The notes under the pieces are model-generated. The model worked only from the letters and a program-made list of their open reading frames with translations, was not told the DNA's origin and searched no databases. This document shows, in pieces, positions 39,619-55,256 of a stretch of 64,000 nucleotides of DNA. The stretch lies in the IMG/VR virus record IMGVR_UViG_3300049719_000225, positions 34,116 through 98,115 of that record; one strand, 5' to 3'. Numbering within the stretch: the first letter of the stretch is position 1; every line of letters starts with the position of its first letter. The position numbers and the translations under genes were made by a program. Origin of the DNA: a virus.

Positions 39619-39706
39619 TGGAGGAAGGAGTGGGATTCGCACCCACGGACGGTTGCCCGTCTCCAGTTTTCAAGGCTGGTGCAATAAGCTGCTCTGCCAC
39701 CCTTCC
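39619..39706 (-). tRNA. tRNA-Ser(TGA)
   Basis: Cloverleaf with CCA. Confidence 0.85.
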
Positions 39707-39709
39707 AAA

Positions 39710-39785
39710 TGGTACCGGTGGCAGGAGTTTCGCCCGCAACCCTCTGTTCCGAAGACAGATGCTCTATACGTTGAGCTACACCGGT
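39710..39785 (-). tRNA. tRNA-Arg(TCG)
   Basis: Cloverleaf with CCA. Confidence 0.82.
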
Positions 39786-39954
39786 GTATGGGGTGCTAGT
39801 TATATGAAAATAGCACCCATGAAAACGAAAGAAAAGATCGCTGAACTTACGCTGTTAAACCCTACTTGGGGTTACAAGCTTGTTTCGCGAATAGCGAATG
39901 GAATGGTACCCCCACCGAGACCGGTCCATCGCTATCTATGGGTACTGGGCGAGA

Positions 39955-40030
39955 TGGAGCTGGTCGTGGGACTTGCACCCACTGCCTGTAGTTTACGAAA
40001 CTACCGCTCTTCTATACGAGCTACACCAGC
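39955..40030 (-). tRNA. tRNA-Thr(CGT)
   Basis: Cloverleaf with CCA. Confidence 0.85.
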
Positions 40031-40035
40031 AAAAG

Positions 40036-40110
40036 TGGTCCGCATGGAAGGAATTGCACCCCCACTAAACGCTCCGAAGGCGCTTGTGCTATCTGTTACA
40101 CCACACGGGC
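40036..40110 (-). tRNA. tRNA (TCG anticodon), degenerate acceptor stem
   Basis: Cloverleaf with acceptor mismatches. Confidence 0.6.
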
Positions 40111-40115
40111 AAAAG

Positions 40116-40191
40116 TGGTCCCGGCGACAGGAGTTGCACCCGCATAGGGCCGCTTAGAAGACGGCTGCCTTTCTGTTCGAGCCACACCGGG
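40116..40191 (-). tRNA. tRNA-Arg(TCT)
   Basis: Cloverleaf with CCA. Confidence 0.82.
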
Positions 40192-40390
40192 AAATTCGTA
40201 GGGACCTCCAACTGGCTAGGAAGGAGTTCGGTCGCCAACCATCCCAAAGGAGGTGTTCACCCCAGGGGGTTTCACCCCATACCCTGGATGTAAACAGTTT
40301 GGTAAGTTTCGGCCATGGCCAAAAACATAGCCGTTGTGGAGATGCAGGGACGGTCGTTGGTCGTGTGTGGCGACGACATGGTCACCACCA

Positions 40391-40924
40391 TCAACCCACA
40401 GTGGATACAGTCGATGATGAGAGACATGCTGGTGCAGGATGCTGATGAGAAACAGGAGCAGACTTACGGCACCAGTTCCTCATGTACGAGGACTGAGCTT
40501 CCCTACATCGTTGACAGCGGCACTTGAACCGGAGGTAGGATCTCCGTGTGCCATGCTCCTGGGGCCTGTTTTGAAGTCTCACCCGTAAGTTTTCTCCGGT
40601 GACATGTTGTTTGAACTTTTCTATGTCAGAAAACCACAGGGGTTTGCCTACAGTTTTCTTTCTATGACAATTTGAGCATCTCACATCACACTTGGAAATT
40701 TCCTCAGAAATTTTGACCCAAGACACGGCGTTGCTTACCATTACGCTAACGTTGACCAACTTATCACACGGATTTTTATGGTCGAAATCTAACACCCGTA
40801 TATCCCGCTCACCGCAATCAACACAGGGGTGGGTTAACAGATGTTCTACGATACGAACCCTGTTGCTCAACCGATAGAGCTTCTGTAGAGCATAGATGTG
40901 TTTTCGCGATCTTCGTGACCTCAT
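40391..40924 (-). CDS. HNH homing endonuclease
   Basis: PCVDCGE.D.RVLDFDH..KCDVRCSNCH; HGT..Y..CRC. Confidence 0.85.
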   Translation of the reverse strand: MRSRRSRKHIYALQKLYRLSNRVRIVEHLLTHPCVDCGERDIRVLDFDHKNPCDKLVNVSVMVSNAVSWVKISEEISKCDVRCSNCHRKKTVGKPLWFSDIEKFKQHVTGENLRVRLQNRPQEHGTRRSYLRFKCRCQRCREAQSSYMRNWCRKSAPVSHQHPAPACLSSSTVSTVG

Positions 40925-40936
40925 ACACCGTAAGAA

Positions 40937-41012
40937 TGGTACCTCCACTCAGATTCGCACTGGGATTTTTTCCTTCGCAGGGAAATGTCCTATCTGGTTG
41001 GACGATGGAGGT
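40937..41012 (-). tRNA. tRNA-Arg(GCG)
   Basis: TTTCC-CTGCGAA-GGAAA anticodon arm. Confidence 0.78.
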
Positions 41013-41017
41013 ATAAG

Positions 41018-41093
41018 TGGGGCGATGTACGGGAATTGCACCCGCTTACCCGGCTTCACAGGCCAGTACACTACTGAATATGCTAACATCGCC
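41018..41093 (-). tRNA. tRNA-His(GTG)
   Basis: G-1:C73 pair; cloverleaf. Confidence 0.85.
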
Positions 41094-41163
41094 ATAAGTG
41101 GCGGGATTGGCCGTTGTTTCGGCCCACGCTGCAGCGCCCGATTCCGAGTCGGAACCCCGTAAG

Positions 41164-41239
41164 TGGAGCCCAGTGACGGATGTGCGCCGTCCATGTCCGG
41201 ATTACAAAGCCGGTCCATCGCTATCTATGGGTACTGGGC
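41164..41239 (-). tRNA. tRNA-Thr(TGT)
   Basis: Cloverleaf with CCA. Confidence 0.8.
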
Positions 41240-41315
41240 AAAGTGTATCGTATGGAATACAGGGATACGGCACAGAATTACGACCGTCCGGTTTGGTATT
41301 GCATACGATGCAAGC

Positions 41316-41391
41316 TGGAGCTAGTGACTGGATTTGCACCAGCTGCCTGCGGTTTACGAAACCGCCGCTCTTCTAAACGAGCTACACTAGC
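41316..41391 (-). tRNA. tRNA-Thr(CGT), second copy
   Basis: Paralog of 39955..40030. Confidence 0.85.
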
Positions 41392-41395
41392 AAAG

Positions 41396-41470
41396 TGGTC
41401 CTCACGGCAGGGGTTGCACCTACATCCAAGCGATTATGGGTCGCCTGCTCTACAATTAAGCTACGCGAGG
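41396..41470 (-). tRNA. tRNA-Met/Ile2(CAT)
   Basis: Cloverleaf; C at position 33. Confidence 0.78.
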
Positions 41471-41676
41471 AAATTAGATTGCGGACAGGGCCGGGCATTA
41501 CCCGAGGACCTGTCCGCTTTATTTTCTAGGTTATTCCATGTAGTCGAGTGCCGCAATGAGCGACAACCCTGCCACACAGACGATACCGGTGATGAGGTCG
41601 ATCATCGGTGTCCTTTCATGTTGTAGCCCGCACGCTAGGTTTGGGCTGTTGATCGTGCCAAGGGCAGGCACGAAGG

Positions 41677-41753
41677 TGGTGCCGAGGAAGGGTCTTGCAC
41701 CCTCACTGGCGCAGATTTTAAGTTTGCGGCCTCTTCTTTTGGGCTACCCCGGC
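41677..41753 (-). tRNA. tRNA-Leu(TAA), short variable arm
   Basis: Cloverleaf with CCA. Confidence 0.78.
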
Positions 41754-42296
41754 AAAAAACTGTAGCCACTCTGGGTCTTCCTTTGGAATCCATCCCTGAG
41801 CGAACATTTTTGTCATTGTTTTTGAAGTTCCTTGGGGAAGATCAAACAACTTCATCAACCGATATGATCCATTTTTCTTTCCAGTGCTAGCAGGACGCTG
41901 GTCAAAAACTTCTTGAGCTTTCCACCAATGGTTTTCTCCCACGTTAGGGTTGTCCCACGGACGTTTGAGGAGGCTCGGGTTGCACTTCCCGCGCATACGG
42001 TCTGAAAGATTCTTACGAAGCAAATCACCAAGGGGAGTATCGTACAAATCTTTGGCATTTTCAGCGGGAGTGCCCCAGTACAAATGGCGAGGATTGGAGC
42101 ACGCAGCATTATGGCAGGCGTGACAGCATTGTATTTTGCTTCTCTTTGGAACAGTCGTTTTCAGATAATGGGCGAGAAGCCCTCGGCATGAGACAGAGTT
42201 TGTGCCTATTTCTACACAAGACTCTTCCAAGTTCAGATGCCGCTGACGATCTTCTTTTATCTGAGTGATGTATTCCTCTATGGGACGATAGGTCAT
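41718..42296 (-). CDS. HNH / His-Cys-box-like homing endonuclease
   Basis: CCHACHNAACSNPRHLYWGTPAEN. Confidence 0.85.
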   Translation of the reverse strand: MTYRPIEEYITQIKEDRQRHLNLEESCVEIGTNSVSCRGLLAHYLKTTVPKRSKIQCCHACHNAACSNPRHLYWGTPAENAKDLYDTPLGDLLRKNLSDRMRGKCNPSLLKRPWDNPNVGENHWWKAQEVFDQRPASTGKKNGSYRLMKLFDLPQGTSKTMTKMFAQGWIPKEDPEWLQFFAGVAQKKRPQT

Positions 42297-42549
42297 GGTC
42301 TAACTACCGTCTACTATTTTTGTTTACTAATGTCCAGAAAGCAAGGGTTGGGCATCCAGTGTCTGGCAGGTTGCAACCCACCTGTCTTTGATGGTGGGCT
42401 GTGCGTCCACCCGACTGCGCGTCCGCAGTCGTACTCCCCAACTACCTCAGAGTGGTCTGCGCCCTCAGGCCTTCAGGTCGTTTCGCTTATCGCCGCCATA
42501 CCAGGCAGCGGGCTACTCCACTTATCCGGTGTTCCGTACAGGCGCAGAG

Positions 42550-42634
42550 TGGTCGCCCAGGAGGGAATCGCACCCTCACGCCCGAAGGCACGCCGTTTTG
42601 AGTGGCGCATGTCTACTGTTCCAATCACTGGGCG
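42550..42634 (-). tRNA. tRNA-Leu(CAA)
   Basis: Cloverleaf with V-arm. Confidence 0.85.
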
Positions 42635-42637
42635 AAA

Positions 42638-42711
42638 TGGCGCCCGCGCGGAGAGTCGCACTCCGATTACAGCCTTGAGAGGGCCGTGAACTACTCTTAT
42701 TCGACGCGGGC
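42638..42711 (-). tRNA. tRNA-Glu(CTC)
   Basis: Cloverleaf with CCA. Confidence 0.82.
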
Positions 42712-42715
42712 AAAT

Positions 42716-42793
42716 TGGTCCCGGGAACAGGATTCGCACCCGCACGCCTTTCGGCAGGAGATTTTCCCGCGTCTACTCTTCCACCACCCCGGG
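42716..42793 (-). ncRNA. Leu-type tRNA body with collapsed anticodon loop
   Basis: GGGA-AAA-TCTCC replaces the anticodon arm; V-arm, T-arm and CCA intact. Confidence 0.65.
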
Positions 42794-42824
42794 AAATCGT
42801 GCTGAGTTTGTGACAATACCAGAG

Positions 42825-43481
42825 CTAAATGGTCCGAAAATAATAGGCATCGGCACTGTTGTCCCAGCGGCACTCATACCCCATATCCTGCAGCACCTGC
42901 TTCAGGTCCTTCATTGAGGCCCCTCCAGAGTAGTGTCCAAAATCTGCAGTTTCATTGACCTCCAAGAAAATAATCCGGGGCCTCAGGGACCCGAGGCCCC
43001 TGAGCACGAAAACCTCAGCCCCCTGAACATCAATCTGGATGATGTCTATGGTGATGCCAGCGCGCCTGCAGAACTCATCCAGTCTCACACTGGGTACGTG
43101 GGTTGGGCTGTCGGTAAACCCTGCCGTTGTTCCGTGTTGGCCCAGCCGTTCAGCCCTCAGCTTTTCAGTCGATGGGAGAATTGAGCCGCTCGCCCTATTG
43201 GGGTCACTAGGAATGTTTGGCCAGAAATCCACCCCATTTTCATGGTCAGTGACAGCGGCCTGCACGAGTTCCACGCCTGTACCCTCCAGGAAAGTCCTGG
43301 AATATGCGTAGTTTACGGTGTCACACTCAAAGGTGATCACCCGTGCATCTGGATACCGTTTCTTGAGGCTGAGGGCCTCATCACCGTCGTAGGTGCCCAC
43401 CTCCACGATCACCCTTGGTGGAACGCCCAGGGCGTCGAACTCACTCAGTGCCAATTCAAATCCTGGGGAACAGAAGCTCAT
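42825..43481 (-). CDS. FkbM-family methyltransferase
   Basis: VEVGTYDG, RLDEFC, IQIDVQGAE..VLRG. Confidence 0.9.
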   Translation of the reverse strand: MSFCSPGFELALSEFDALGVPPRVIVEVGTYDGDEALSLKKRYPDARVITFECDTVNYAYSRTFLEGTGVELVQAAVTDHENGVDFWPNIPSDPNRASGSILPSTEKLRAERLGQHGTTAGFTDSPTHVPSVRLDEFCRRAGITIDIIQIDVQGAEVFVLRGLGSLRPRIIFLEVNETADFGHYSGGASMKDLKQVLQDMGYECRWDNSADAYYFRTI

Positions 43482-43705
43482 ATGCCTAACTAGAATAGTT
43501 CCGCCTCAGGTCGCTCAGCAGACATCCACGCTTCCTGTCGCACTTACCTGCCGGGTAATTACTCCCAGATGCCAAGGTGCGATTATGTGAGCTGGCACAT
43601 CAAAGCTTCTACTCACGACGGTCGTGGTACTCTACTGCCCTCAGTGACGGATTGGTCGGCATGAGGGGAATCGCACCCCTCTTACGGAACACGCATGCCG
43701 GTGAT

Positions 43706-43789
43706 TGGTGCCCTAGGGGAGAGTCGCACTCCCAAGGCTCACTCCTTCTAAGGGAGGCCGCTCTTCTATTCGCGGTGAACCACACGGGC
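43706..43789 (-). tRNA. tRNA-Leu(TAG)
   Basis: CTCC-CTTAGAA-GGAG anticodon arm. Confidence 0.72.
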
Positions 43790-44542
43790 AAATTGTCTAT
43801 TCCAGTAACCTCGGGGTTTGGTTTGCACTCCAAGTTCGTGGCAAAGTTTCCTGATAGCCGTTTCACCTACACCATATTCTTTGGCGATGTGGGTTATGGG
43901 TTTACTATCAATAGTGCTCTGAAGCTGTTCGCGTGTCGGTCGCTGAAACTTTTGTGAGCCTGCGTGAGAGCAGGTATAGGAGCAAAAGCGTGGTCGTGTT
44001 GTGGGCGTGCCACAGTGAGCACATGGCTTAATGAGTTTAGCTTTAAGCCGTCCCATACGAAGTTTCATTTTTGGTGGATTGGGTTGTCGTTTCCTCGGAC
44101 GTTGGCTGTGGCAATTTGGGCAAATAAACTGCACATTTTCTGGGCGACAGTCATAGGTCACGCCATCTCGATGATCAACTTCAAGCACCAGAGGTTTAGA
44201 GTTCCAGACATCGGCAATACCACAAACTTCACATTTATACTCCCGTCCTGATTCTACCAAAGCACGGCGTAGATTTTGGGCTCTGGTACGGTCCCCATTA
44301 TGTCTGTTGAACACTAGCACTTCTTTCCAATGTAATTTGTTAGGTCCTCCTCGATGGTTTGGCCCTCGATTAGCTCTTGAACCAAGAAAATGGGCAGTGC
44401 TGATACCAAACCTCTTTATGAGAGATTTAATGTGCTGATGACGGCCCCCAGTGACAGGAAAACCAAGTCGTCGTATCACCTCTGAGACAGAGATAGACTG
44501 GGCCACGGCGAGTTGCATTTCAGTTTTAGAGTAAACACGCAT
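43766..44542 (-). CDS. HNH homing endonuclease with HTH
   Basis: CEVCG..WNSKPLVLEVDH.DG..ICPNCH. Confidence 0.88.
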   Translation of the reverse strand: MRVYSKTEMQLAVAQSISVSEVIRRLGFPVTGGRHQHIKSLIKRFGISTAHFLGSRANRGPNHRGGPNKLHWKEVLVFNRHNGDRTRAQNLRRALVESGREYKCEVCGIADVWNSKPLVLEVDHRDGVTYDCRPENVQFICPNCHSQRPRKRQPNPPKMKLRMGRLKAKLIKPCAHCGTPTTRPRFCSYTCSHAGSQKFQRPTREQLQSTIDSKPITHIAKEYGVGETAIRKLCHELGVQTKPRGYWNRQFARVVHRE

Positions 44543-44572
44543 GATAGTAACTAGCGTACTTACTAGAACGAT

Positions 44573-44657
44573 TGGTCCCGACGAGAGGACTCGCACCTCC
44601 AAGGTATTTCTACCGCTACGTTCTGAGCGTAGTTCGTTTACATTTCGACACGCCGGG
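44573..44657 (-). tRNA. tRNA-Leu(CAG)
   Basis: Cloverleaf with V-arm. Confidence 0.82.
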
Positions 44658-44714
44658 AAAGTTTACTGGAACGCTATGTTTTACTGCTCAGTAAAACTAT
44701 GTTTTGGTGTAGAA

Positions 44715-44799
44715 TGGTGCGGATGACAGGCTTCGCTCCTGCACGGTGTTACCCCAACGCTTCTCAGGCGCTGCTGTCTACTAATTTCAGCACATCCGC
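44715..44799 (-). tRNA. tRNA-Leu(GAG)
   Basis: Cloverleaf with V-arm. Confidence 0.82.
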
Positions 44800-45154
44800 G
44801 AAATTGGTTACATTGGATTGGTGCGCTTCACAGTGGTCTGCGCGGCGGTGCGCCAGAAGGCGCGGAAATTGGGTTCATTGGATTGCGCTGCTGTGCAGGG
44901 CGTAGCAGTGCATAGCGTCGGGAAATTGGGTTCATTGGATTGCGCGGCGTGGCCGCTCAGTGCCCAGCGTAGCATTGCGTGGCTGTGCTCGGCTGTGCAT
45001 TGCTACGATTCGCACGGCGAGGAAATTGGTTACATTGGATTGCGCGGCGTGGCTTGGCAGTGCTGTGCTCTGCATTGCATCGCCGAAATTGGTTACCTTG
45101 GATTGGATGGATTGCATTGCTCAGCGTAACGCTGCATGGCGAAGACCGAAATTA
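44800..45154 (-). repeat. CRISPR-like array: five 21-nt repeats separating pentamer-periodic (NNNGC) tracts
   Basis: GAAATTGG(T/G)T(A/T)C(A/C)TTGGATTG at 44800, 44865, 44922, 45022, 45085; intervening tracts of 44, 36, 79, 42, 42 nt. Confidence 0.9.
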
Positions 45155-45739
45155 CATCTTGATGGGCGTCCAGTGGATCACCTTGAACTTGCCGAACGGT
45201 CCCTTGCGGTCGGGCCTGAAGTCGCCCAGGCCTATCTTGCTGCCTGCGTGGTCAACCAACGTGCGGACCAGGTCGATGGCGGCCTCGGACTCGTCCAGCG
45301 TGAGGGTGAAGGCGAGATTCCAGGTGTCGAAGCGAGGCCTGTGGGCCATGATGCGACCGTTGGTGTTGGGGTTGACGACAGACCGGCTGTCCACCTCGAA
45401 GTCCTTGACCCGCTTGCCGCCGCTGGTGAGCGGGCACTCAAGCTCGTCCAGGGCCAGGAAGGACGGCACCAGGCTGCTCTTCTGGGTGGTCACCTTGCTC
45501 TTGCCGCTCTTCAGGTACTTGCCCGCGTCGATGATGCAGCGGAACATGTTGGGGCCAGGGATGAACATGTAGCCGTCCTTGTTCTTGTAGGCCTTTGTCT
45601 CGGCCTGCTCCCGGGGTATGCCTTTGTCTCCTCTAAGAGCGGAACGGTGGCCACCCTCGACTTGCCGTTCAGCTGCCTCGGTGAAGCGATTCATCAGCAG
45701 GGGTGTCGTGCCCTGGATCTCTACCTTGATGGTTGTCAT
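45152..45739 (-). CDS. stand-alone RAMP/Cas7-like protein (copy 1)
   Basis: IQGTTPLLMN, FIPGPNMFRCI, RPRFDTW, G-rich loop AGSKIGLGDFRP..GPFGKF. Confidence 0.75.
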   Translation of the reverse strand: MTTIKVEIQGTTPLLMNRFTEAAERQVEGGHRSALRGDKGIPREQAETKAYKNKDGYMFIPGPNMFRCIIDAGKYLKSGKSKVTTQKSSLVPSFLALDELECPLTSGGKRVKDFEVDSRSVVNPNTNGRIMAHRPRFDTWNLAFTLTLDESEAAIDLVRTLVDHAGSKIGLGDFRPDRKGPFGKFKVIHWTPIKM

Positions 45740-45783
45740 GCGGAGAGGTTGGATCACAGGTTCCTGTTTTGTAAACAACAAAA

Positions 45784-45858
45784 TGGAGGTCCCATCCAGA
45801 GTTGCACTGGACCAACCCGAATACCAATCGGGAGCTACGCTAGCTTAGCTTTGGGACC
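45784..45858 (-). tRNA. tRNA-Thr(GGT)
   Basis: Cloverleaf with CCA. Confidence 0.8.
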
Positions 45859-46374
45859 ATATCGGTAAGTACGCACGCTAATGTTTCTTCTGCCAAAATT
45901 TTTAGTGAGGGAGTGGCAGTTTGGGCACAAAACCTTAAGGTTTTCCGGTCTGCTATTTGCTGCATTTCCATCTTCATGGTGAACTTGGACTGGTATGTTT
46001 TTGGTGAACTCGTTGACCATGTTCCACCCGCATTTCTCACACTTATTACCCGCCCTCTCCAGCACCCAATCCCTAACGGGGTCCTTTAGATCAAAATTAC
46101 CCGTATCATAGTGACCCTGTATCTCTCCCTTTAGCCACCCCTCTACGAGAGAGCGGGACTTCTTTTTTCGCTGGAGAGAAATGATTTCAGGAAAACTCAG
46201 AAAGTGGTCGGTGCTTACTCCCCTTTCAAGACACACTTTTCTAATTAAATTAATAATGGACTGGCATTTAGTCTTATAGCCGAGATTACTGACGGCCTCG
46301 GATATGTGGGTGCTACCCGAAATGATAGCCTGAAGTTCCTCTAGGGGCATCTTGTACAATTTAGATATTATCAT
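45835..46374 (-). CDS. HNH homing endonuclease
   Basis: KCEKCGW..VQVHHEDGN..NL.VLCPNCHS. Confidence 0.88.
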   Translation of the reverse strand: MIISKLYKMPLEELQAIISGSTHISEAVSNLGYKTKCQSIINLIRKVCLERGVSTDHFLSFPEIISLQRKKKSRSLVEGWLKGEIQGHYDTGNFDLKDPVRDWVLERAGNKCEKCGWNMVNEFTKNIPVQVHHEDGNAANSRPENLKVLCPNCHSLTKNFGRRNISVRTYRYGPKAKLA

Positions 46375-46418
46375 AGCGTAACTACTCCTAATATCGAAAG
46401 AACTGCGCTACCATAAAA

Positions 46419-46490
46419 TGGTCGCAGGCACGGGTGCTGCCCCCGCTTGACAGACCTTATGAGAGTCCGCTGGTTGCTGAACCTCCTGCT
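46419..46490 (-). tRNA. tRNA (CAT), reduced D-arm
   Basis: CT-CAT-AA loop; CCA. Confidence 0.6.
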
Positions 46491-46495
46491 ACAAC

Positions 46496-46571
46496 TGGTG
46501 GACCCGGTGGGCTTTGCTCCCACGACCTACTGATTAAGAGTCAGCTGCTCTGCTGGCTGAGCTACGAGTCC
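46496..46571 (-). tRNA. tRNA-Lys(CTT)
   Basis: Cloverleaf with CCA. Confidence 0.87.
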
Positions 46572-46618
46572 AAATTATCACGTACACCATATAAAAGCGG
46601 TTTATCCTGTTTACGAGA

Positions 46619-46694
46619 TGGTACCCCAGACAGGATTCGCACCTGCAACCTTCTCCTTAGGACGGAGTTGCTCTATCTTTTGAGCTACTAGGGT
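46619..46694 (-). tRNA. tRNA-Arg(CCT)
   Basis: Cloverleaf with CCA. Confidence 0.83.
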
Positions 46695-46753
46695 ATAATT
46701 GTTTTGCCGTTTTACGGCGGTGGCAGTTGGTGCACCTAACTACAGACAGTATG

Positions 46754-46829
46754 TGGTGCCCCCGCACGGACTCGCACCGTGATCTCAGCCTTCGGAGGGC
46801 CGTATTCGATCTAGTTGAAATACGTGGGC
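46754..46829 (-). tRNA. tRNA-Arg(CCG)
   Basis: Cloverleaf with CCA. Confidence 0.82.
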
Positions 46830-46837
46830 AAATAAAT

Positions 46838-46913
46838 TGGTGGGCTCACGGGGATTCGCACCCCGAGTCGTCGGTTTAAAAGACCGCTGCTTTGACTGTT
46901 TAGCTATGAGCCC
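46838..46913 (-). tRNA. tRNA-Lys(TTT)
   Basis: Cloverleaf with CCA. Confidence 0.85.
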
Positions 46914-47027
46914 GTAAAGGACACGAGGATGGAGAATCGAACTCCAAAGGGACCATCGCTCAGTTGGCTTACGCAACGCCTTCTGACCTTGGTGCGTTTC
47001 CCCTCACCAGACCCGTGAAAGTTTTGT

Positions 47028-47414
47028 GACGGCAAATAGCCGCGATTCTGTCAGGTTCCCATTTCTGGGCACATCAGGCTGGCGGGCTCCACTGCAATGG
47101 TGCCACCGCAAGACCAATTTCCTGTGCTGTACATTTGACTAAGCAGCAACCCGGCTTCACAGGGGAGCACTACCCTCAGCCTATTTGCCTTGCACCTACC
47201 GCCACCAACGTGGGTGGTGGTAATGACGAGTGCAAGCACTCTCCCACCGAACGGCTGCTCAGGTGTCGCGAACTTCCTCAGGTTGGGCTGGTTTCCCCTG
47301 CAGCGTGGACCTTGCTCAACCCGCGTACAACTATGCCTGTCACAAAGGGAGGCGGCTGGTGCCCTGAGGGTTTCACCCGCCCCGCGAGTTTTACACGGGG
47401 ATTGCGTTGCCGCC
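47028..47414 (-). ncRNA. rnpB: RNase P RNA
   Basis: P1 GGCGGCAA/TTGCCGTC; GAGCAAGGTCC (CR-I-like), GGTGCAAGGCAAATAGG, ACAGAATCGCGGCTA (CR-V-like). Confidence 0.82.
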
Positions 47415-47417
47415 AAA

Positions 47418-47491
47418 TGGCTGCGGAGGCTGGATTCGCACCAGCACTAGACGGGTCAAAGCCGCCGGGCCTACTATTAACCTACTCCGCA
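47418..47491 (-). tRNA. tRNA-Gln(TTG)
   Basis: U1-A72; cloverleaf. Confidence 0.83.
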
Positions 47492-47497
47492 ATGAAA

Positions 47498-47574
47498 TGG
47501 TCAGGGTGACAGGACTTGCACCTGCATAATTTCCGTTCCGAGCGGAATCGCCGACTATTTGGCACCACACCCTG
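47498..47574 (-). tRNA. tRNA-Pro(CGG)
   Basis: Cloverleaf with CCA. Confidence 0.8.
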
Positions 47575-47580
47575 ATAATT

Positions 47581-47643
47581 CGAGGGAACAAACGGACAGG
47601 GTATTGTTTCGTTCACGGAAGTAACCCTGACCTACGCCACTCG
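47581..47643 (-). ncRNA. Y RNA-like element 2 (minimal)
   Basis: CGAGTGGCGTAGGTCAGGGTTACTTC..ACCCTGTCCGTTTGTTCCCTCG. Confidence 0.72.
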
Positions 47644-47697
47644 AAGATAAACCAGCCCGAGGCCGTTGATCATACGGCGGGTCAGGATGACAGGAAA

Positions 47698-48096
47698 TTA
47701 TTTCTTCTCCAGATGCGAGTCGCTCGTCGCACCGAGCACCTTCTCAATCAGCATCGACACCTTCATGCCGAACAGGGATCCAGCCACAGTGGCGATGGTG
47801 TAGGGGATGAAGAGGGTGAAGCTCATGTTGGCCGTCACGAGGCGCTGGAACGTGAGGAACCAGATGCCGTTCGAGAACACGGCGGCGATCATGTGGTAGG
47901 TCATGTTGTCGCGGTTGCGGCTGCGGCTGACGATGGAGAAGCTGACGTTTTGAGCGAAGGCCAGCAGCATCAGGATGCCAGCACCCGTGATGTAGAGCAA
48001 GAAGGTGTCCCTTTTCAGAGTGAGGAGAAGGATGCCTAGCCAGATGGCTGTGGCGGCAACAAGCGTGTAGGCGAGGTTTCTCTCGGAGGACTTCAT
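47698..48096 (-). CDS. small multi-pass membrane protein
   Basis: Hydrophobic helices; AFAQN.SF..VSRSRNR. Confidence 0.7.
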   Translation of the reverse strand: MKSSERNLAYTLVAATAIWLGILLLTLKRDTFLLYITGAGILMLLAFAQNVSFSIVSRSRNRDNMTYHMIAAVFSNGIWFLTFQRLVTANMSFTLFIPYTIATVAGSLFGMKVSMLIEKVLGATSDSHLEKK

Positions 48097-48109
48097 CCCT
48101 CTGAAGAAC

Positions 48110-49540
48110 TCAGACCAGTTCCGTGTGGGTGTACTGGCTGATGTTGTGCTGGAACCTGGCAATCGGTCCAGCGGTGAAATCGTACACCCAGGCCATAGCA
48201 CCACGCTTCTGGTGGTTGAATCCCTTGAGTCGATGCCACTCGTTGGGGGCGGTGAGGCCGGGGATGTACTCCACGCTCACCCCCTGCTCTTCCAGAGCGG
48301 CAGGTATGGAGCTGCCCTTGCGATGCTGATCCCCCAGGTGAAATTCCCGGTATTCGGTCTCAGCCCAATCTTTGCGGCACTCGTTGGCCATCAGTGATGC
48401 CAGTCTTATCTGGCTGACGGAATGACCGTGTTCATAGCCTATCAGAGTGCTGCCAAAGCGATGAAACTTGTAGGGGGACGACGTGGCGTTGATGTGTATG
48501 TTCTCGTCGTTCCTGAAATACGCCCTGAGCAAGTGCGCCAGGGTGAAGTCGGCCATCCTGCTGTGATTTCCAGGTATTTCGTAGATGAAAAGCTCCTTCG
48601 CCACCTCTCTGAGTTTCTTCACCATCTCGATGGCGATGGCCTCGGCCCGCTCGTAAACGTGGTGCCAGGCTACGGCCTCAGGCTGGTTCGTTCCCGCAGT
48701 GGTGGTATGGAAGACAGTGTCCGAGTGAACGAAGTCGTTGCCGAACGGTAGGAAGGCCTGCTCGAACGGTCCAAACACCAACCCTTTCTCCGTGAGATCA
48801 TCGATTGCTGACATGATATGGGCGGCGGAAAGGTCAATGTTCCAGGGAGCATCCGCTTCTGGCCTCTCGCACAGGAGCCCGATGTGCGGATCCATGATGC
48901 AGATCTCAAAGGCACGTCGATAGGGAAGTTTCTTCTTGCGCAGCTCTGGGATGGGGAAGTGGGGCGCGTGCTCCTCAAGGCGCTTCAGGAGCGCCTGACC
49001 GGCGAGGATTTGCGGGCTCTTTCGTTTCAGCCACACCTTCACCTGCCACAGCTCCTCGTGGAAAGGTACGCTGCTGCCCCGGGTCCAGAGTGTTGATTGC
49101 TCACCGTGAAGGCCCGTGGAGATCTTTGCCTTGTCGCCTGCACCTCCAACCGTGGTGGCGGGCTCTCTCATGGCCACCTCCCACTTGTTTATCGTGTGCC
49201 GTTCGACCTCCCAGGTGGTCAGGTCCACCTTGGTTGCAGCCAGAAGCTGTTCGAGACTCTTAATCTGACTGGAACAGGAGGATGCGATTGCAGAATCCTT
49301 GTCTGTATCGAGAGTTACATGACGCTTGGGCTCAGCCTGTGGCACTCTAAGTGTGCACCCTGGTACCCGTTTTGGGAGTATTTCAAGCTGTTTACGCAGC
49401 CTGGAAAGGATGCCTCGTAAACTTGAAGAGGCGTACTCAGGGAACTGGGCCTTTAGATCTGACGGCCTCACTCCAGGATTGTCTCTCAGAATGTCTCGTA
49501 ATTTGTCGCAGTTTGTCGGCCCGTCATGCGGCGTTGGCAT
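48110..49540 (-). CDS. metallophosphoesterase with N-terminal HTH-like region
   Basis: DPHIG, GND.VH, PGNH, EHGH, HLGD.H. Confidence 0.85.
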   Translation of the reverse strand: MPTPHDGPTNCDKLRDILRDNPGVRPSDLKAQFPEYASSSLRGILSRLRKQLEILPKRVPGCTLRVPQAEPKRHVTLDTDKDSAIASSCSSQIKSLEQLLAATKVDLTTWEVERHTINKWEVAMREPATTVGGAGDKAKISTGLHGEQSTLWTRGSSVPFHEELWQVKVWLKRKSPQILAGQALLKRLEEHAPHFPIPELRKKKLPYRRAFEICIMDPHIGLLCERPEADAPWNIDLSAAHIMSAIDDLTEKGLVFGPFEQAFLPFGNDFVHSDTVFHTTTAGTNQPEAVAWHHVYERAEAIAIEMVKKLREVAKELFIYEIPGNHSRMADFTLAHLLRAYFRNDENIHINATSSPYKFHRFGSTLIGYEHGHSVSQIRLASLMANECRKDWAETEYREFHLGDQHRKGSSIPAALEEQGVSVEYIPGLTAPNEWHRLKGFNHQKRGAMAWVYDFTAGPIARFQHNISQYTHTELV

Positions 49541-49578
49541 GGAGTAACTACTCACGTACGGATAGAACAGATACCAAA

Positions 49579-49655
49579 TGGTCGGAATGGCGGGCTTTGC
49601 TCCCGCGACCTCACGGCCCCCAGCCGTGCGCTCTACTGAACTAAGCTACATTCCG
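49579..49655 (-). tRNA. tRNA-Pro(GGG)
   Basis: Cloverleaf with CCA. Confidence 0.85.
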
Positions 49656-49932
49656 AAAGGGCCGCCTCTTTCAGCGGAGTCACACCACTCATTGGTTGCC
49701 GTTAAGCACCGTGACCAGCATTTAGGGGGCATACCCTCGCTCTGACACGGCCCTTTACCCAGGTGTCGGGATTAAATACAACCCCGCTACGGAGCGGGGA
49801 GGAGACGCATCACCTCCTTTCTTAACGGATGGGGTGCCGGTGCTCAGGCGGCTGGTGGTTGTCACTTGCGGTGGCCACCCCTTCGTCTGGAACCTTTCAG
49901 CTCCTGCAAGTAGGCACTTATCTAACCCCAAG

Positions 49933-50008
49933 TGGTCGTCACGAAGGGACTCGCACCCCTGATCCTCTCCATGTCGAGGAGATGCCTTAGCTGCTGGGCT
50001 ACGTGACG
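49933..50008 (-). tRNA. tRNA-Val(GAC)
   Basis: Cloverleaf with CCA. Confidence 0.8.
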
Positions 50009-50071
50009 AAATGGTTACGAAAAGCGCGGCGTGTTACCCTGGGCGGCTGTGAGCCGATCTTAACGCTGAAA

Positions 50072-50145
50072 TGGCTCCCAGGGAAGGATTCGCACCTCCA
50101 CGAAACGGGTCAGGGCCGTTGATGCTACTGTTACATTACCTGGGA
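50072..50145 (-). tRNA. tRNA-Gln(CTG)
   Basis: Cloverleaf with CCA. Confidence 0.8.
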
Positions 50146-50721
50146 ATAAAGTCGCCCTGCCAGACAGGATGCTCCTGCACTTCCCGGGAGCGCTCTCCGG
50201 GATGTTCTTGGTGTTTGAACTACTGGCAAGATGGCTGCTAGGGAGGGACTCGCACCTTCATAATCCCGATTAACAGTCGGGGGCTCTACTATTGAGCTAC
50301 CTAGCAATGAAAGTTTTGAGTGTTCCTCTGCGTGACAGTTGGCGCATATAAGATCACATTTTCTAGCCTCTTCCCGAACGGCTTTCTGAGACACCCATTT
50401 TCTCAAGCCCGTTACGCCAATGTTTATTTTACGACCGTCACGTTTAACCAAGCACCTATTCCCTATCGGTTTTCTATGGTGAAAGTGAAGAGCATCTAAG
50501 CATCTTGAGTACCCACATCGCTTACATTTACCTCCGTGCTCTATTTTCAGAGTTGTTAAAAACTTCCTTCTATTTTCCCGTCGTTTCGACTTTGCGTACT
50601 CACGATACTCGTTTGTAGCATGCCAAGCTACTGTGCTTTTGGTGAGACCCGTGATGGAGCAAATTTCCCTGCGGCTTTTGCCCTCTTTTAAGAACTGTTC
50701 CACTAATTCTCTAGTGCCCAT
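50131..50721 (-). CDS. HTH-HNH homing endonuclease
   Basis: GGKCKRCGY..ALHFHH..KCDLICANCHAEEH. Confidence 0.87.
   Translation of the reverse strand: MGTRELVEQFLKEGKSRREICSITGLTKSTVAWHATNEYREYAKSKRRENRRKFLTTLKIEHGGKCKRCGYSRCLDALHFHHRKPIGNRCLVKRDGRKINIGVTGLRKWVSQKAVREEARKCDLICANCHAEEHSKLSLLGSSIVEPPTVNRDYEGASPSLAAILPVVQTPRTSRRALPGSAGASCLAGRLYSQVM
50232..50306 (-). tRNA. tRNA-Asn(GTT)
   Basis: Cloverleaf with CCA. Confidence 0.86.
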
Positions 50722-50767
50722 GACTTAACTAAGAATGGTCATTTTTATGTCCCGCTCTCCAGGTGAA

Positions 50768-50842
50768 TGGTGGTTCGTGAGGGACTCGCACCCCCGTAGG
50801 TTGCATGTGACGCAACTATCCTAGCTGCTAGATGAACGAACC
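50768..50842 (-). tRNA. tRNA-Val(CAC)
   Basis: Cloverleaf with CCA. Confidence 0.82.
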
Positions 50843-50848
50843 GGATAA

Positions 50849-50928
50849 TGGTGCACTGGGAGGGACTCGCACCCCCGATCATTGCCTGCGTGTAAAACAG
50901 GTGCCCTGGCTGCTAGGCTGACCAATGC
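50849..50928 (-). tRNA. tRNA-Val(TAC)
   Basis: Cloverleaf with CCA. Confidence 0.8.
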
Positions 50929-51155
50929 AAAGTTTTACCCAGACGGGGGCCTTCAGCGACAGGCGGCAGCCCCACCTTCGTGTTACTCCCTTTCGTCAGC
51001 ACCCTGTGATGCCGGGGTCCTCATCAGCCCGCGACTTGCGGCCCGAGCCTTCCACCACCTCATCTCGCGGATCAGCCACGTCTTATTTGGCGGCAGTGGT
51101 CTGGCAGACTGACTTCCTGCTCTTAAGATGCGCTTCATACGCACTCCTGGGTAAA

Positions 51156-51232
51156 TGGCGGGCACGACCGGACTTGCACCGGCTGACACTGGATTGACAA
51201 TCCAGGGATTCGACTCCTTCATCTCCGTACCC
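51156..51232 (-). tRNA. tRNA-Asp(GTC)
   Basis: Cloverleaf with GCCA end. Confidence 0.83.
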
Positions 51233-51368
51233 ATAAAGGCTGGGAGGAGAGTGGACTGTTCACCACCCGTCCTTTCGAGCCGCCAACCGTGCCCGGATCC
51301 CAGGCCGTGCCAGCGGTGAGTCAAACAACTCGATTGCTCTGTACATCTCTGAGCTATCCTCCCGTAAA

Positions 51369-51512
51369 TGGTGCAAGGTGATGGAGTCGAACCACCGGCG
51401 TGCAGTTTGTGTATGAAGTATCCCGCGTCTACGCTACTGGTTTCCCGCCACGGTTTCCCGGGATCAGGCGACTCAGGTATGTGTTACTGTGCTACCGTTA
51501 CACTAAACTCGC
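51369..51512 (-). ncRNA. tRNA-Y RNA chimera (Y stem replaces the anticodon loop)
   Basis: tRNA 5' half, then GCCTGATCCC..GTAGCGTAGACGCGGGATACTTC, then T-arm and ACCA. Confidence 0.7.
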
Positions 51513-51515
51513 AAA

Positions 51516-51592
51516 TGGTCCGAGTGAAGGGATTCGCACCCCCGATCTCCTGCTCCCAAAGCAGGCGCGTTACTAGGCTTCGCTACACTCGG
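51516..51592 (-). tRNA. tRNA-Pro(TGG)
   Basis: Cloverleaf with CCA. Confidence 0.86.
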
Positions 51593-52001
51593 AAAGGGAC
51601 GGGGTTTATGAGTCCTGGAACCCCCACAGGGCGGTATGTCTCCGCTTGCTCGCACCAACGGGAGTCGAACCCGCCCCTTCTCATAGGAGGTATGCAGTCC
51701 GCCACACTCTGATGTCTGCAACAGGTGATTTCGCTGACGAAATGGTGCGTTCTTTCCCGCCGTCACAGTGCGCCACAAGGCTTCACAGGCCCCCTGCGCA
51801 TATCGTGTTTTCGTACACGTCTGGGCTTTGGAGGCCCAGAACGTCAGATTTATCTTCTGACATACCAGTGTTTTGTTGGACGAGGCCCCCATAAAATGGT
51901 GTGCCAGCAAACTCTGGCACTAAATGGAGGGGGCCGCAGGATTTTCACCTGCATTCGCGCCTTAGAAGGGCGCAGTCCTATGTGGTCATAGATGTTCAAA
52001 A

Positions 52002-52078
52002 TGGTGGACACGGCAGGCTTCGCTCCTGCGACACGCGGCTCTTCAGACCGCTGTTCTACTGGGCTGAACTACGAGTCC
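52002..52078 (-). tRNA. tRNA-Phe(GAA)
   Basis: Cloverleaf with CCA. Confidence 0.83.
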
Positions 52079-52083
52079 ATTCT

Positions 52084-52164
52084 CGGGGAACAAGCGGCAA
52101 CGGGTACGCCCTTGCGGGCGATCTTGTTGTTGGAATAAGAAGTATCCGTCACCTAACGCCACCG
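52084..52164 (-). ncRNA. Y RNA-like element 3
   Basis: CGGTGGCGTTAGGTGACGGATACTTC..CCGTTGCCGCTTGTTCCCCG; nearly identical to the 38378 copy. Confidence 0.75.
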
Positions 52165-52167
52165 AAA

Positions 52168-52242
52168 TGGGTGCAGAGACCGGACTCGCACCGGCGACCT
52201 TGTGGTTATGAGCCACACGAGCTGCTACTGCTCCACTCTGCA
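52168..52242 (-). tRNA. tRNA-Met(CAT), initiator-like body
   Basis: GAGC..GCTC D-arm; CTCATAA loop. Confidence 0.8.
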
Positions 52243-52384
52243 AAGTGACAGGAAACCAAACGCCGGGGTGCGCTACATCCCCGAACCTCCGCGTGTTTTG
52301 CAGCCGCGTCCTCTGCGTCTATGAGATAGCCGCTCAGTTTCCCTATTGACGTTGGATGTGCAAGACACCACGTAGTCACTAAAA

Positions 52385-52460
52385 TGGCACGGACGGCAGG
52401 TATTGCGCCTGCATGGAACGGTTTTGGAGACCGTCGCCTTACTTGTCGAGCCACGTCCGT
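52385..52460 (-). tRNA. tRNA-Trp(CCA)
   Basis: Cloverleaf with GCCA end. Confidence 0.83.
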
Positions 52461-52539
52461 ATGAGAAGGCTCTGGAGGCAGGAGTCTCACCTGCGGTCTC
52501 ACCGTGCGCACAGATCGGCCTAGTTCGTCCACCCCAGAA

Positions 52540-52614
52540 TGGTCCTCCAGTCCGGTACTGCCCCGGCGTCAAAGCCTTATCGAGACTCCGCTCTACTATT
52601 TGAGCTACAGGAGG
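52540..52614 (-). tRNA. tRNA-Ile(GAT)
   Basis: Cloverleaf with CCA. Confidence 0.8.
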
Positions 52615-52689
52615 AAATTGTCATGGAGAGAGGCCTCCCTCATGTGATTATTTTGGCACGGACTCCCACCGTTTGTGATACCTCGAAGA

Positions 52690-52777
52690 TGGTCCAGGCG
52701 ACAGGACTCGCACCTGTGAAGCCCGTTAGGGCGGTTGATTTACAGTCAACTGGCATAGCTGCTCGCACCACACCTGG
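52690..52777 (-). tRNA. tRNA-Tyr(GTA)
   Basis: Cloverleaf with V-arm. Confidence 0.83.
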
Positions 52778-52969
52778 AAATGGGTGTAGGCGAGGTACGT
52801 GACCACCTCTACGTCAGGTTATGATCCTACACGAGCACTTGCATACCTACAAAGACTCTCCGCTGTAATGCTCACCCAACTGTTTGCCCGCACTCGGCCT
52901 ATGGCCTGCTTTAGGGGTTGGGAGTGACTACGCCTGCACTACACTTTCGTCTGGCGAAGGAACGGAGAA

Positions 52970-53044
52970 TGGAGCCCCAGCGGGGTAATGCTCCCCGTAC
53001 TCAAGTTTGGAAAACTCACATGTATCTATCAACACTTCTGAGGC
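52970..53044 (-). tRNA. tRNA-Gly(TCC)
   Basis: Cloverleaf with TCCA end. Confidence 0.8.
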
Positions 53045-53251
53045 AAATTGAGCGGGGCACAGGTTGCCCTGTGCCCCTATCCAGGGTGTGAAAATATGCG
53101 GTTGGGTCCAACGAGCTAGGCTCTCCCCTTGACCTTGCGGTATGCGCACACTCACATGCCGGTGATTTCTCACCGGGAAATTATGCCGCACCCTACACTG
53201 TAAGGGGTGTTGGGCATAACGCCATGACCCCTCCATTTCAGTAGCGGCAGA

Positions 53252-53327
53252 TGGTGGAGATGATGGGAGTCGCACCCACGGCCTATTCAATGCCATTGAA
53301 TCGCTCTGCTAACTGAGCTACATCCCC
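53252..53327 (-). tRNA. tRNA-Ala(GGC)
   Basis: G3:U70; cloverleaf. Confidence 0.87.
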
Positions 53328-53400
53328 GAAAATGCAGAGGGCGCTGGTTGGGCGTCCTCGTTGCTCCTTCCACACTTACCCGTTGGTGGATGAGTCAAAT

Positions 53401-53820: not shown

Positions 53821-54004
53821 AAAGAGTAGCCCAGACCGGGTTGGCCGGTCTGGGCAGCGATACATGCTAACGGCTAAGACTTTTCAGGTGAAATTGGTTG
53901 GCCCATCCTTCCCCCGTGACGCTTTAGTCCCGACACACTCTTCGTGCATCTGTCACAGGTTTTCGGCAGGGCTCACCTTTGTACTATTGAGCATTGGTGT
54001 AAAC

Positions 54005-54080
54005 TGGTGGAGACGACGGGGGTTGCACCCGTTACCCCCTCGTTGCGAACGAGGCGCTCTGCTAGTTGAGCTACATCCCC
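54005..54080 (-). tRNA. tRNA-Ala(CGC)
   Basis: G3:U70; cloverleaf. Confidence 0.86.
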
Positions 54081-54084
54081 GAGG

Positions 54085-54155: not shown

Positions 54156-54158
54156 AAA

Positions 54159-54234: not shown

Positions 54235-54239
54235 GAGAG

Positions 54240-55250: not shown

Positions 55251-55256
55251 ATGAAA

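What the first reader, a model, noticed from the sequence alone, without database searches (positions are those of the whole stretch)
44800..45739. Solo RAMP/Cas7-like gene followed by an array of pentamer-coded units: candidate non-CRISPR RNA-guided system
Seen: directly after the stop of a 195-aa ORF there are five units on the sense (minus) strand. Each is a variable tract followed by the conserved CAATCCAA(T/G)G(T/A)A(A/C)CCAATTTC. The variable tracts are not random spacers; they keep a 5-nt register with a fixed GC (e.g. GATGC AATGC AGAGC ACAGC ACTGC CAAGC CACGC; AATGC ACAGC CGAGC ACAGC CACGC AATGC TACGC TGGGC). Known: the protein has the N-terminal beta-strand motif (G.TPL), IP motif and C-terminal G-rich loop (IGLGDFRP..GPFGKF) typical of RAMP/Cas7-family proteins, which polymerise on RNA with a fixed per-subunit footprint. 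No cas1, cas2 or cas6 lies in the window. Inference: each unit is a guide RNA in which the constant bases of each pentamer bind one protein subunit and the variable bases spell a discontinuous target code. I recall recently described phage RAMP systems with GGY/NN repeat guides (VIPR-type); this needs checking. The NNNGC register here would be a variant.
Basis: partly seen in the sequence, partly recalled or inferred. Interest (0 to 1): 0.95.

Follow-up and report, generated by a model that had tools for sequence, protein, structure and literature searches.

The report
Phage VIPR guide-RNA locus in tRNA island
This is a genuine example of the VIPR systems first described in 2026 (a lone Cas7-like protein plus guide RNAs built from five-letter repeats that phages use to silence rival DNA). 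It is a further member of a known class, with a relaxed repeat motif and an unusual position inside a phage tRNA cluster.

Summary
ORF 45152-45739(-) is a 195-aa Vipr protein. A family profile matches the solved SUSP1 Vipr (PDB 36pp) over its full length at E 2e-12, and the AF2 model matches Csm3/Cas7 RAMPs.

Directly after its stop lie five abutting units of 57-100 nt. Each is a tract of x-G-C-N-N pentamers ending in one conserved, unstructured 3' tail, which is the vrRNA architecture. About 100 homologous loci carry sense-strand pentamer arrays beside the gene, with a related tail.

The first repeat position is G in 59% of the relatives' pentamers. Here it is almost never G (3 of 43). Degenerate motifs of this kind are already in print (YNNNG, WGT/NN).

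In a Mesorhizobium prophage relative, one guide read by the published 1-nt-skip rule matches 24 of 26 letters at codons 6-18 of a rival prophage's tape-measure gene. No target was found for this window's own guides, and no expression data could be obtained.

Particular to this lineage: no accessory gene, a position inside a tRNA island with the last unit flush against tRNA-Leu, and a second canonical VIPR (GGC/NN) at 62709-64000.

This scan has already reported VIPR loci in at least 271 other genomes. This is a new member of a known kind.

The parts
45152..45739 (-). vipr1: 195-aa Vipr (single-RRM RAMP) with G-loop GLGDFRP
   Evidence: phmmer against PDB 36pp_D (SUSP1 Vipr) gives E 2.8e-7. The family profile A1 gives E 2e-12 over residues 4-189 of both. 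phrog_4652 matches at E 5e-20. The AF2 model has pLDDT 86.6, and Foldseek top hits are Csm3/Cas7. dN/dS is 0.13-0.15 against relatives of 75-79% identity.
45085..45147 (-). vrRNA unit 1 (63 nt; about 6 variable pentamers; 1-nt register slip before the tail; tail has 1 mismatch)
45022..45084 (-). vrRNA unit 2 (63 nt; 8 regular xGC/NN pentamers plus tail)
44922..45021 (-). vrRNA unit 3 (100 nt; 15 pentamers, two of them irregular, plus tail)
44865..44921 (-). vrRNA unit 4 (57 nt; 6 pentamers plus tail)
44800..44864 (-). vrRNA unit 5 (65 nt; degenerate pentamers plus tail); its last base abuts the first base of tRNA-Leu
   Evidence: It is the only unit with a fold better than shuffles (z -2.6).
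44715..44799 (-). tRNA-Leu(GAG) starting one base after the last tail. RNase P cleavage here would make the 3' end of unit 5 (inference).
   Evidence: ARAGORN. Perfect 7-bp acceptor stem and encoded CCA. Not reported by the Rfam tRNA model at E<=1.
45784..45858 (-). tRNA-Thr(GGT) 44 nt upstream of the vipr1 start
   Evidence: ARAGORN; sequence read
45769..45777 (-). TGTTTACAA motif between tRNA-Thr and vipr1; possible promoter -35 element or operator
   Evidence: 5 copies in the window against 0.34 expected. It is also present before vipr2 and before the vipr of relative L085. Function not tested.
62709..63344 (+). separate second system: vipr2 (211 aa, G-loop GVGEWRP)
   Evidence: E 2.6e-5 to SUSP1 Vipr. 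30% identity to vipr1 over the C-terminal 57 residues.
63341..63937 (+). second system: 198-aa gene overlapping the vipr2 stop (vap-like by position only)
   Evidence: No Pfam family. No homologue beside vipr in 103 relatives' loci.
63913..64000 (+). second system: strict GGC/NN pentamer tract cut off by the contig end
   Evidence: x is G in 13 of 13 pentamers.

Best explanation
This is a VIPR (Viral Interference Programmable Repeat) system of a tailed phage: one vipr gene followed by an array of five vrRNA genes on the same (minus) strand.

By analogy with the solved SUSP1 system, Vipr1 protomers bind one per pentamer along each vrRNA. They sequester the x-G-C triplet and present the two following bases. 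The series of NN dinucleotides pairs with double-stranded DNA while skipping every third DNA base. The bound filament blocks transcription of a competing phage, prophage or satellite.

Shown here:
- protein family membership and fold;
- the vrRNA-type array with a shared tail;
- conservation of the gene-plus-array arrangement in about 100 relatives;
- purifying selection on the gene;
- one natural target in a relative that obeys the 1-nt-skip rule.

Inferred:
- that these five units are transcribed, loaded and active;
- that they silence a rival element;
- that the first repeat position needs no particular base in this lineage;
- that the array is co-transcribed with the tRNA island, and that the last unit's 3' end is made by RNase P at the abutting tRNA-Leu.
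For: Protein:
- PDB 36pp 'SUSP1 Vipr protein' matches at E 2.8e-7 with the single sequence and at E 2e-12 full length with the profile.
- The published RNA-contact residues align as R138->R134, D177->D173, R179->R175, W178->F174 and H17->N17.
- The AF2 model (pLDDT 86.6) hits Csm3, type VII Cas7, Cmr4 and Cas7-11 at E about 5e-6 and TM 0.5-0.6.

Array:
- There are 5 tails against 0 expected.
- 5-nt GC periodicity is unique to the two VIPR loci in the 64-kb window.

Relatives:
- 1397 homologous proteins were found.
- Nearly all of 80 IMG/VR loci carry 5-nt-periodic tracts right before or after the gene. They read GG/GC on the sense strand.
- Their tails resemble this one: 15 of 21 bases are shared with L003, in the same register.
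- The closest relatives, L084 (79%) and L085 (75%), have the same tail family and a mostly non-G first position.
- dN/dS is 0.13-0.15.

Mechanism in the clade:
- One vrRNA of the Mesorhizobium Root552 prophage (Vipr 58% identical) was read as NNx and searched in 202 Mesorhizobium genomes.
- It matches 24 of 26 letters at codons 6-18 of a tape-measure-like gene, with the skipped bases at wobble positions. The reversed control gave 0 hits.
- The prophage's own copy of that gene matches only 18 of 26.

Context:
- No cas1, cas2 or cas6.
- No terminator between 44300 and 46700.
Against:
- No target was found for any of the five guides. Searches covered the 98-kb contig, 106 fetched loci and IMG/VR by exact gapped patterns. 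The 8 hits for unit 2 look like chance.
- The tail is predicted single-stranded, unlike the pseudoknotted SUSP1 tail.
- The first repeat base is not G, and the residue aligned with its H17 contact is Asn.
- Units 1 and 5 are degenerate.
- No accessory (vap) gene is present.
Confidence: 0.9

Rival explanations
1. The locus is a decaying remnant. The vipr gene is intact, but the array has drifted (first G lost, units 1 and 5 degenerate) and no longer guides anything.
For: x is G in only 3 of 43 pentamers, against 59% in relatives. Pentamers are irregular in units 1, 3 and 5. No target was found.
Against: Positions 2 and 3 of the pentamer are kept in 40 and 39 of 43 cases. All five tails are near-identical. 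The two closest relatives share the non-G first position and the tail family while carrying different NN series. The gene is under purifying selection. The VIPR preprint describes internal degeneracy as frequent in functional vrRNAs.
Confidence: 0.06
2. The array is transcribed from the plus strand (antisense to vipr1). The constant block would then be a 5' handle rather than a 3' tail.
For: GC is its own reverse complement, so the periodicity alone does not give the strand. A 103-aa open frame runs along the plus strand.
Against: In relatives the tracts read GG, not CC, on the vipr sense strand. Their 3' tails align with this tail in the sense orientation. All flanking tRNAs and genes are on the minus strand. 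The last tail ends exactly at the 5' end of a minus-strand tRNA.
Confidence: 0.02
3. The units serve mainly as decoys or competitors that capture another element's Vipr (or the phage's own Vipr2), in the way described for solo vrRNAs of satellites, rather than as guides for Vipr1.
For: Solo or redirecting vrRNAs are described in the October 2026 preprint. A second, different VIPR lies on the same contig.
Against: The array sits directly after its own vipr gene, as in about 100 relatives. Its repeat motif differs from the strict GGC of the second system, which argues against loading by Vipr2.
Confidence: 0.02

Closest known systems
Type II VIPR of Escherichia phage SUSP1 (bioRxiv 10.64898/2026.04.26.720920; structures in 10.64898/2026.04.26.720927, PDB 36pp)
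   Same: Homologous Vipr protein with the same G-loop and thumb contact residues (D, R, R). vrRNAs built from 5-nt repeats followed by a constant 3' tail. Array downstream of the gene on the same strand. Phage-encoded, with no cas genes.
   Different: Only about 24% protein identity. Repeat is xGC/NN with x almost never G, instead of GGY/NN. H17 is Asn and W178 is Phe. The tail is short, C/A-rich and unstructured rather than a pseudoknot. No vap gene and no upstream vrRNA.
VIPR systems with relaxed or non-canonical repeats (YNNNG, NNNGG, NNNNG in 10.64898/2026.04.26.720920 Methods; WGT/NN, TGH/NN, GAC/NN in 10.64898/2026.10.21.760802)
   Same: 5-nt period with one position of the fixed triplet degenerate. 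A Vipr-fold gene lies beside the array.
   Different: Those papers' figures and tables are not held here, so I could not check whether this exact motif, tail or clade is among them.
Vap-less VIPR loci with abutting ('staggered') or hammerhead-interspersed arrays (legends of figs S18 and S19 of 10.64898/2026.04.26.720920; probably type I)
   Same: Solo vipr. Units follow each other without spacers. One relative of this clade (L025, 56% identity) has a Hammerhead_II between two tracts.
   Different: No ribozyme in this array. Here tRNA genes flank the locus instead. The type assignment is an inference and was not tested phylogenetically.
CRISPR class 1 backbone RAMPs (Csm3, Cas7, Cmr4)
   Same: RRM core, G-rich loop and thumb. 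Best structural matches in the PDB have TM 0.5-0.6. The protein polymerises along a guide with a fixed footprint.
   Different: No CRISPR array, no cas1, cas2 or cas6, 10-14% identity, a 5-nt rather than 6-nt footprint, and guides that are internally periodic.

Membership tests
VIPR system | Vipr protein: a single-RRM RAMP with G-loop and thumb, homologous to characterised Vipr | tested here: met
   PDB 36pp SUSP1 Vipr at E 2.8e-7 and E 2e-12 full length with the profile. Csm3/Cas7 fold matches.
VIPR system | vrRNA: at least 4 tandem 5-nt repeats with a fixed GGY-type triplet (or related consensus) alternating with variable NN | tested here: met
   43 pentamers in 5 units. G at position 2 in 40 and C at position 3 in 39. 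NN is variable. The first position is relaxed, which is the 'related consensus' form.
VIPR system | Invariable 3' tail after the repeat tract | tested here: met
   5 near-identical tails, related to the tails of homologous loci. Predicted unstructured, unlike the SUSP1 pseudoknot.
VIPR system | Minimal, mostly viral locus without cas genes or a CRISPR array | tested here: met
   Tailed-phage contig carrying major head, protease and tape-measure genes. No cas1, cas2 or cas6.
VIPR system | Accessory vap gene next to vipr (typical but not universal) | tested here: not met
   The neighbours are tRNAs and two paralogous HNH genes that have no homologue beside vipr in 103 relatives' loci.
VIPR system | Guides recognise DNA by the 1-nt-skip rule (NNx) | tested here: inconclusive
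   Met in a 58%-identical relative, with 24 of 26 letters on a tape-measure gene and skips at wobble positions. No target was found for this window's guides.
VIPR system | vrRNAs are expressed and co-purify with Vipr; transcriptional silencing follows | not testable with these tools
Needs a bench test.
VIPR type I (vap-less; inferred from the preprint's text) | Placement in the type I clade of the published Vipr phylogeny | not testable with these tools
   Type tables and figures are not held. Indirect support only: no vap, and a hammerhead in relative L025.
CRISPR-Cas class 1 | CRISPR repeat-spacer array with cas1/cas2 adaptation genes and a multi-subunit effector | tested here: not met
   No cas1, cas2 or cas6 on the 98-kb contig. 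The units are internally 5-nt periodic and of unequal length.

The most novel reading that the evidence does not exclude
The phage runs two orthogonal VIPR systems. System 1 has given up recognition of the first G (x is almost never G; short unstructured tail), so that its guides are not loaded by the strict-GGC Vipr2, and the reverse. Its array, inserted in the tRNA island and flush with tRNA-Leu, is matured by host tRNA-processing enzymes (RNase P, perhaps RNase E at the AAUUUC ends) instead of ribozymes or a structured tail.
Probability: 0.2. Interest if true: 0.55.

Novelty: new member of a known kind. Interest (0 to 1): 0.3.

Why it matters
It adds a well-delimited natural example to a class that is only months old. 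The example is a vap-less Vipr whose guides carry any base but G at the first repeat position and end in an unstructured tail.

It sits beside a canonical GGC/NN system in the same phage. That pair is a ready-made test of how a Vipr chooses its own RNAs, and of whether two such systems can run side by side.

The flush junction with a tRNA offers a simple handle on how vrRNA ends are made.

The Mesorhizobium relative gives an independent, non-enterobacterial confirmation of the 1-nt-skip rule. It also shows how a prophage spares its own copy of the target gene by synonymous differences.

Tried and rejected
Target searches for the five guides:
- On the own 98-kb contig, with skips of 0, 1 and 2: no better than shuffled guides.
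- On 106 fetched loci: the same result.
- Exact gapped patterns in IMG/VR for unit 3 (NN 6-15, NN 1-10, NN 4-12): zero hits.
- Unit 2 (8 NN): 8 hits, 6 of them distinct, in unrelated contexts and frames. I took these as chance.
- Guides of relatives searched against this phage: no excess for skip 1.
- The upstream guide of the Mesorhizobium prophage: no hit at 2 mismatches or fewer.
- The second, 3-mismatch hit lies in an enoyl-CoA-hydratase-like gene. I treated it as chance.

Other checks:
- Tail-motif scan of IMG/VR: one unrelated hit inside a coding region.
- Single-protein scan of IMG/VR: none.
- Pfam: no family for Vipr1, Vipr2 or the vap-like gene.
- Rfam: no ribozyme or other family in the array.
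- Residues that might separate strict-G from relaxed-x Viprs: only conservative E/D, M/L and K/R trends.
- HNH genes as a vap: rejected.
- Translation of the tract as a protein: rejected, because a 5-nt period cannot keep a reading frame and the relatives' units differ in length.

Full report
What is there. On the minus strand, a 195-aa ORF (45739 down to 45152, ATG start) is followed without a gap by five units of 63, 63, 100, 57 and 65 nt (45147 down to 44800). Each unit ends in the same tail of about 21 nt. A pattern search finds that tail 5 times, all on the minus strand, where shuffles expect none. The stop codon of the ORF is itself part of a tail-like TAATTTC, so unit 1 begins right after it. 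Upstream of each tail, the sequence keeps a 5-nt register with a fixed GC. Scoring every position of the window for GC at 5-nt spacing (at least 6 of 8) lights up only 44875-45093 and, unexpectedly, 63923-64000.

The protein. Pfam has no family for it. PHROGs places it in phrog_4652, of unknown function. Against PDB sequences it matches one entry, 36pp, 'SUSP1 Vipr protein'. The match is E 2.8e-7 with the single sequence. With a profile of 32 relatives it is E 2e-12, aligned over residues 4-189 of both proteins. In that alignment the published RNA contacts of SUSP1 Vipr correspond to R134 (R138, thumb), D173 (D177), F174 (W178) and R175 (R179) in the G-loop, and to N17 (H17). An AlphaFold2 model (pLDDT 86.6, pTM 0.81) finds Csm3, type VII Cas7, Cmr4 and Cas7-11 as its best PDB matches (E about 5e-6, probability 1.00, TM 0.5-0.6). 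The fold library used there ends on 8 April 2026 and listed no Vipr entry. The gene is under purifying selection (dN/dS 0.13 and 0.15 against relatives of 79% and 75% identity).

What is known. VIPR systems were described in a bioRxiv preprint of April/June 2026 (10.64898/2026.04.26.720920). A lone RAMP, Vipr, binds vrRNAs made of 9-16 YNNGG repeats (GGY alternating with hypervariable NN) followed by an invariable 3' tail. The NN series reads double-stranded DNA while skipping one base per dinucleotide, and binding represses transcription. Natural targets are rival phages, prophages and satellites. Seven types are defined. The Methods mention alternative repeats NNNGG, YNNNG and NNNNG, as well as 'staggered' and hammerhead-interspersed arrays. 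A companion paper gives the structural basis (10.64898/2026.04.26.720927). A third shows competition with a satellite and solo vrRNAs (10.64898/2026.10.15.759431). A fourth reports 21 clusters with non-canonical 5-mers such as WGT/NN, TGH/NN and GAC/NN (10.64898/2026.10.21.760802).

Relatives and register. The protein has 1397 homologues in the large protein collection, many at 55-79% identity. I fetched 80 loci from IMG/VR, 5 from JGI metagenomes and 18 from GTDB genomes. The genome hosts include Mailhella, Desulfovibrio, Mesorhizobium, Phenylobacterium, Geobacter, Planctomycetota and Verrucomicrobiia. Nearly all loci carry 5-nt-periodic tracts immediately before and/or after the gene. On the vipr sense strand these read GG and GC one base apart, that is GGC/NN. 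Their tracts end in a tail of the form AAGGC-AAGG-(A/T)TAC. This aligns with the tail here at 15 of 21 bases, in the same pentamer register. That settles two points:
- The array is read on the minus strand, with the variable tract 5' and the tail 3'.
- The proper register is x-G-C-N-N, with x at the place of the first G of GGY.

Over the 43 variable-tract pentamers of this array, position 2 is G in 40 and position 3 is C in 39. x is C14, T14, A12, G3. In the pooled relatives, x is G in 59% of 3312 pentamers, ranging from 100% down to about 12% per locus. This window is at the low extreme (10% by the automatic count). The two closest relatives follow at 14% and 23%. These two also share the tail family. 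L085 further shares the TAATTTC stop overlap, a TGTTTACAA motif before the gene, and upstream tRNAs. I found no residue that cleanly separates strict-G from relaxed-x Viprs. The Asn at the H17 position is invariant across the whole clade.

Does the clade use the published code? I took the downstream vrRNA of the Mesorhizobium sp. Root552 prophage (L093; Vipr 58% identical) and wrote its 13 NN as an NNx pattern. I searched 202 Mesorhizobium genomes allowing 3 mismatches. For 2 mismatches or fewer, about 0.002 hits are expected by chance (my calculation). The reversed control pattern gave none. The best hit matches 24 of 26 letters at codons 6-18 of a tape-measure-like gene of another strain's prophage. 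It is in frame, with every skipped base at a wobble position. The prophage's own homologous gene lies just downstream of the array and matches only 18 of 26, through synonymous and conservative differences. The skipped bases agree with x of the next pentamer in 3 of 12 cases, which is chance level. In this one case, x is therefore not read. The tail's AA dinucleotides do not pair either. This supports, for the clade, both the 1-nt-skip rule and the role in rivalry between related phages.

Targets of this window's guides. None was found. The searches covered the 98-kb contig with skips of 0-2, all fetched loci, and IMG/VR by three exact gapped patterns from unit 3. The 8-NN pattern of unit 2 gave 8 hits in unrelated contexts, as expected by chance. 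Exact-match scans are a blunt tool here, since the preprint used an 80% match threshold. The absence of a target is therefore weak evidence.

Context. The contig is a 98-kb fragment of a tailed phage (CheckV 43% complete). It has head protease, major head and tape-measure genes and no near relative among deposited phages. The VIPR locus lies inside an island of 33 minus-strand tRNA genes with interspersed HNH genes. tRNA-Thr ends 44 nt before the vipr1 start. The last tail ends at 44800 and tRNA-Leu(GAG) begins at 44799. No terminator-like site lies between 44300 and 46700, and no Rfam family, including hammerheads, lies in the array. Among 103 relatives' loci, only L085 has tRNAs beside vipr, so this placement is a trait of this phage lineage. 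The two flanking HNH proteins are paralogues (29% identity, E 3e-14) with no counterpart near vipr in any relative. I read them as homing endonucleases, not as an accessory gene. The tails are predicted single-stranded, and the units fold no better than shuffles, except unit 5. From established knowledge, RNase P cuts at tRNA 5' ends, and enterobacterial RNase E prefers sites of the form RN|WUU, which the AAUUUC tail end fits. Maturation by host RNases is plausible but untested.

A second system. The same contig carries vipr2 at 62709-63344(+), which matches SUSP1 Vipr at E 2.6e-5 and is 30% identical to Vipr1 over the C-terminal 57 residues. It also carries an overlapping 198-aa gene of no known family, and a strict GGC/NN tract that starts within that gene's last codons and is cut off by the contig end. 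The coexistence of a strict-GGC system and a non-G system suggests that the two do not share RNAs. This is the most interesting open point, and it is an inference.

Verdict. It is a new member of a known kind. Its relaxed repeat motif belongs to variants already mentioned in print, and this scan has reported VIPR loci in at least 271 other genomes. Its particular features are the solo gene, the near-absence of G at the first repeat position, the unstructured tail, the position inside a tRNA island flush with a tRNA, and a second canonical system on the same genome. These are modestly interesting and easy to test.

Limits. The preprint's type tables and figures are not held, so the type could not be assigned.

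Noticed in passing
window 62709-64000 (+): A second, canonical VIPR locus: vipr2 (211 aa), an overlapping 198-aa gene of no known family, and a strict GGC/NN tract cut off by the contig end. It is only distantly related to vipr1.
   Followed up: partly
window 39619-55331 (-), 33 tRNA genes: None of the 33 tRNAs has the usual GTTCRA T-loop. 26 read GTGCRA (G at position 55, where U/pseudouridine is almost universal). 5 read GAGCRAAGC. Two are other variants. All encode their CCA end.
   Followed up: no
window 44573-44657, 44715-44799, 45784-45858 (-): Three tRNAs called by ARAGORN (Leu, Leu, Thr) were not reported by the Rfam tRNA model at E<=1, although their acceptor stems are perfect.
   Followed up: no
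window 4046, 8466 (+), 36848, 45769 (-), 62612 (+): The TGTTTACAA motif, preceded by a T-run, occurs 5 times against 0.34 expected. It lies upstream of genes, including both vipr genes and the vipr of relative L085. At two sites a TATTAT or TAGTAT box follows 16 nt later. Likely a phage promoter or operator.
   Followed up: partly
window 45835-46374 (-) and 43766-44602 (-): Two paralogous HNH-domain genes (29% identity) flank the VIPR locus within the tRNA island. A third His-Me finger gene lies at 41718-42296. They are probably homing endonucleases.
   Followed up: partly
L025 3193-3260: A Hammerhead_II ribozyme (42 bits) sits between two vrRNA tracts of a relative with 56% identity. This fits the ribozyme-interspersed arrays mentioned in the preprint.
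   Followed up: no
L093 3100-3190 and L108 1501-1538: A vrRNA of the Mesorhizobium sp. Root552 prophage matches, by the 1-nt-skip rule, 24 of 26 letters at the start of a tape-measure-like gene in another Mesorhizobium genome. Its own neighbouring copy of that gene matches 18 of 26.
   Followed up: yes
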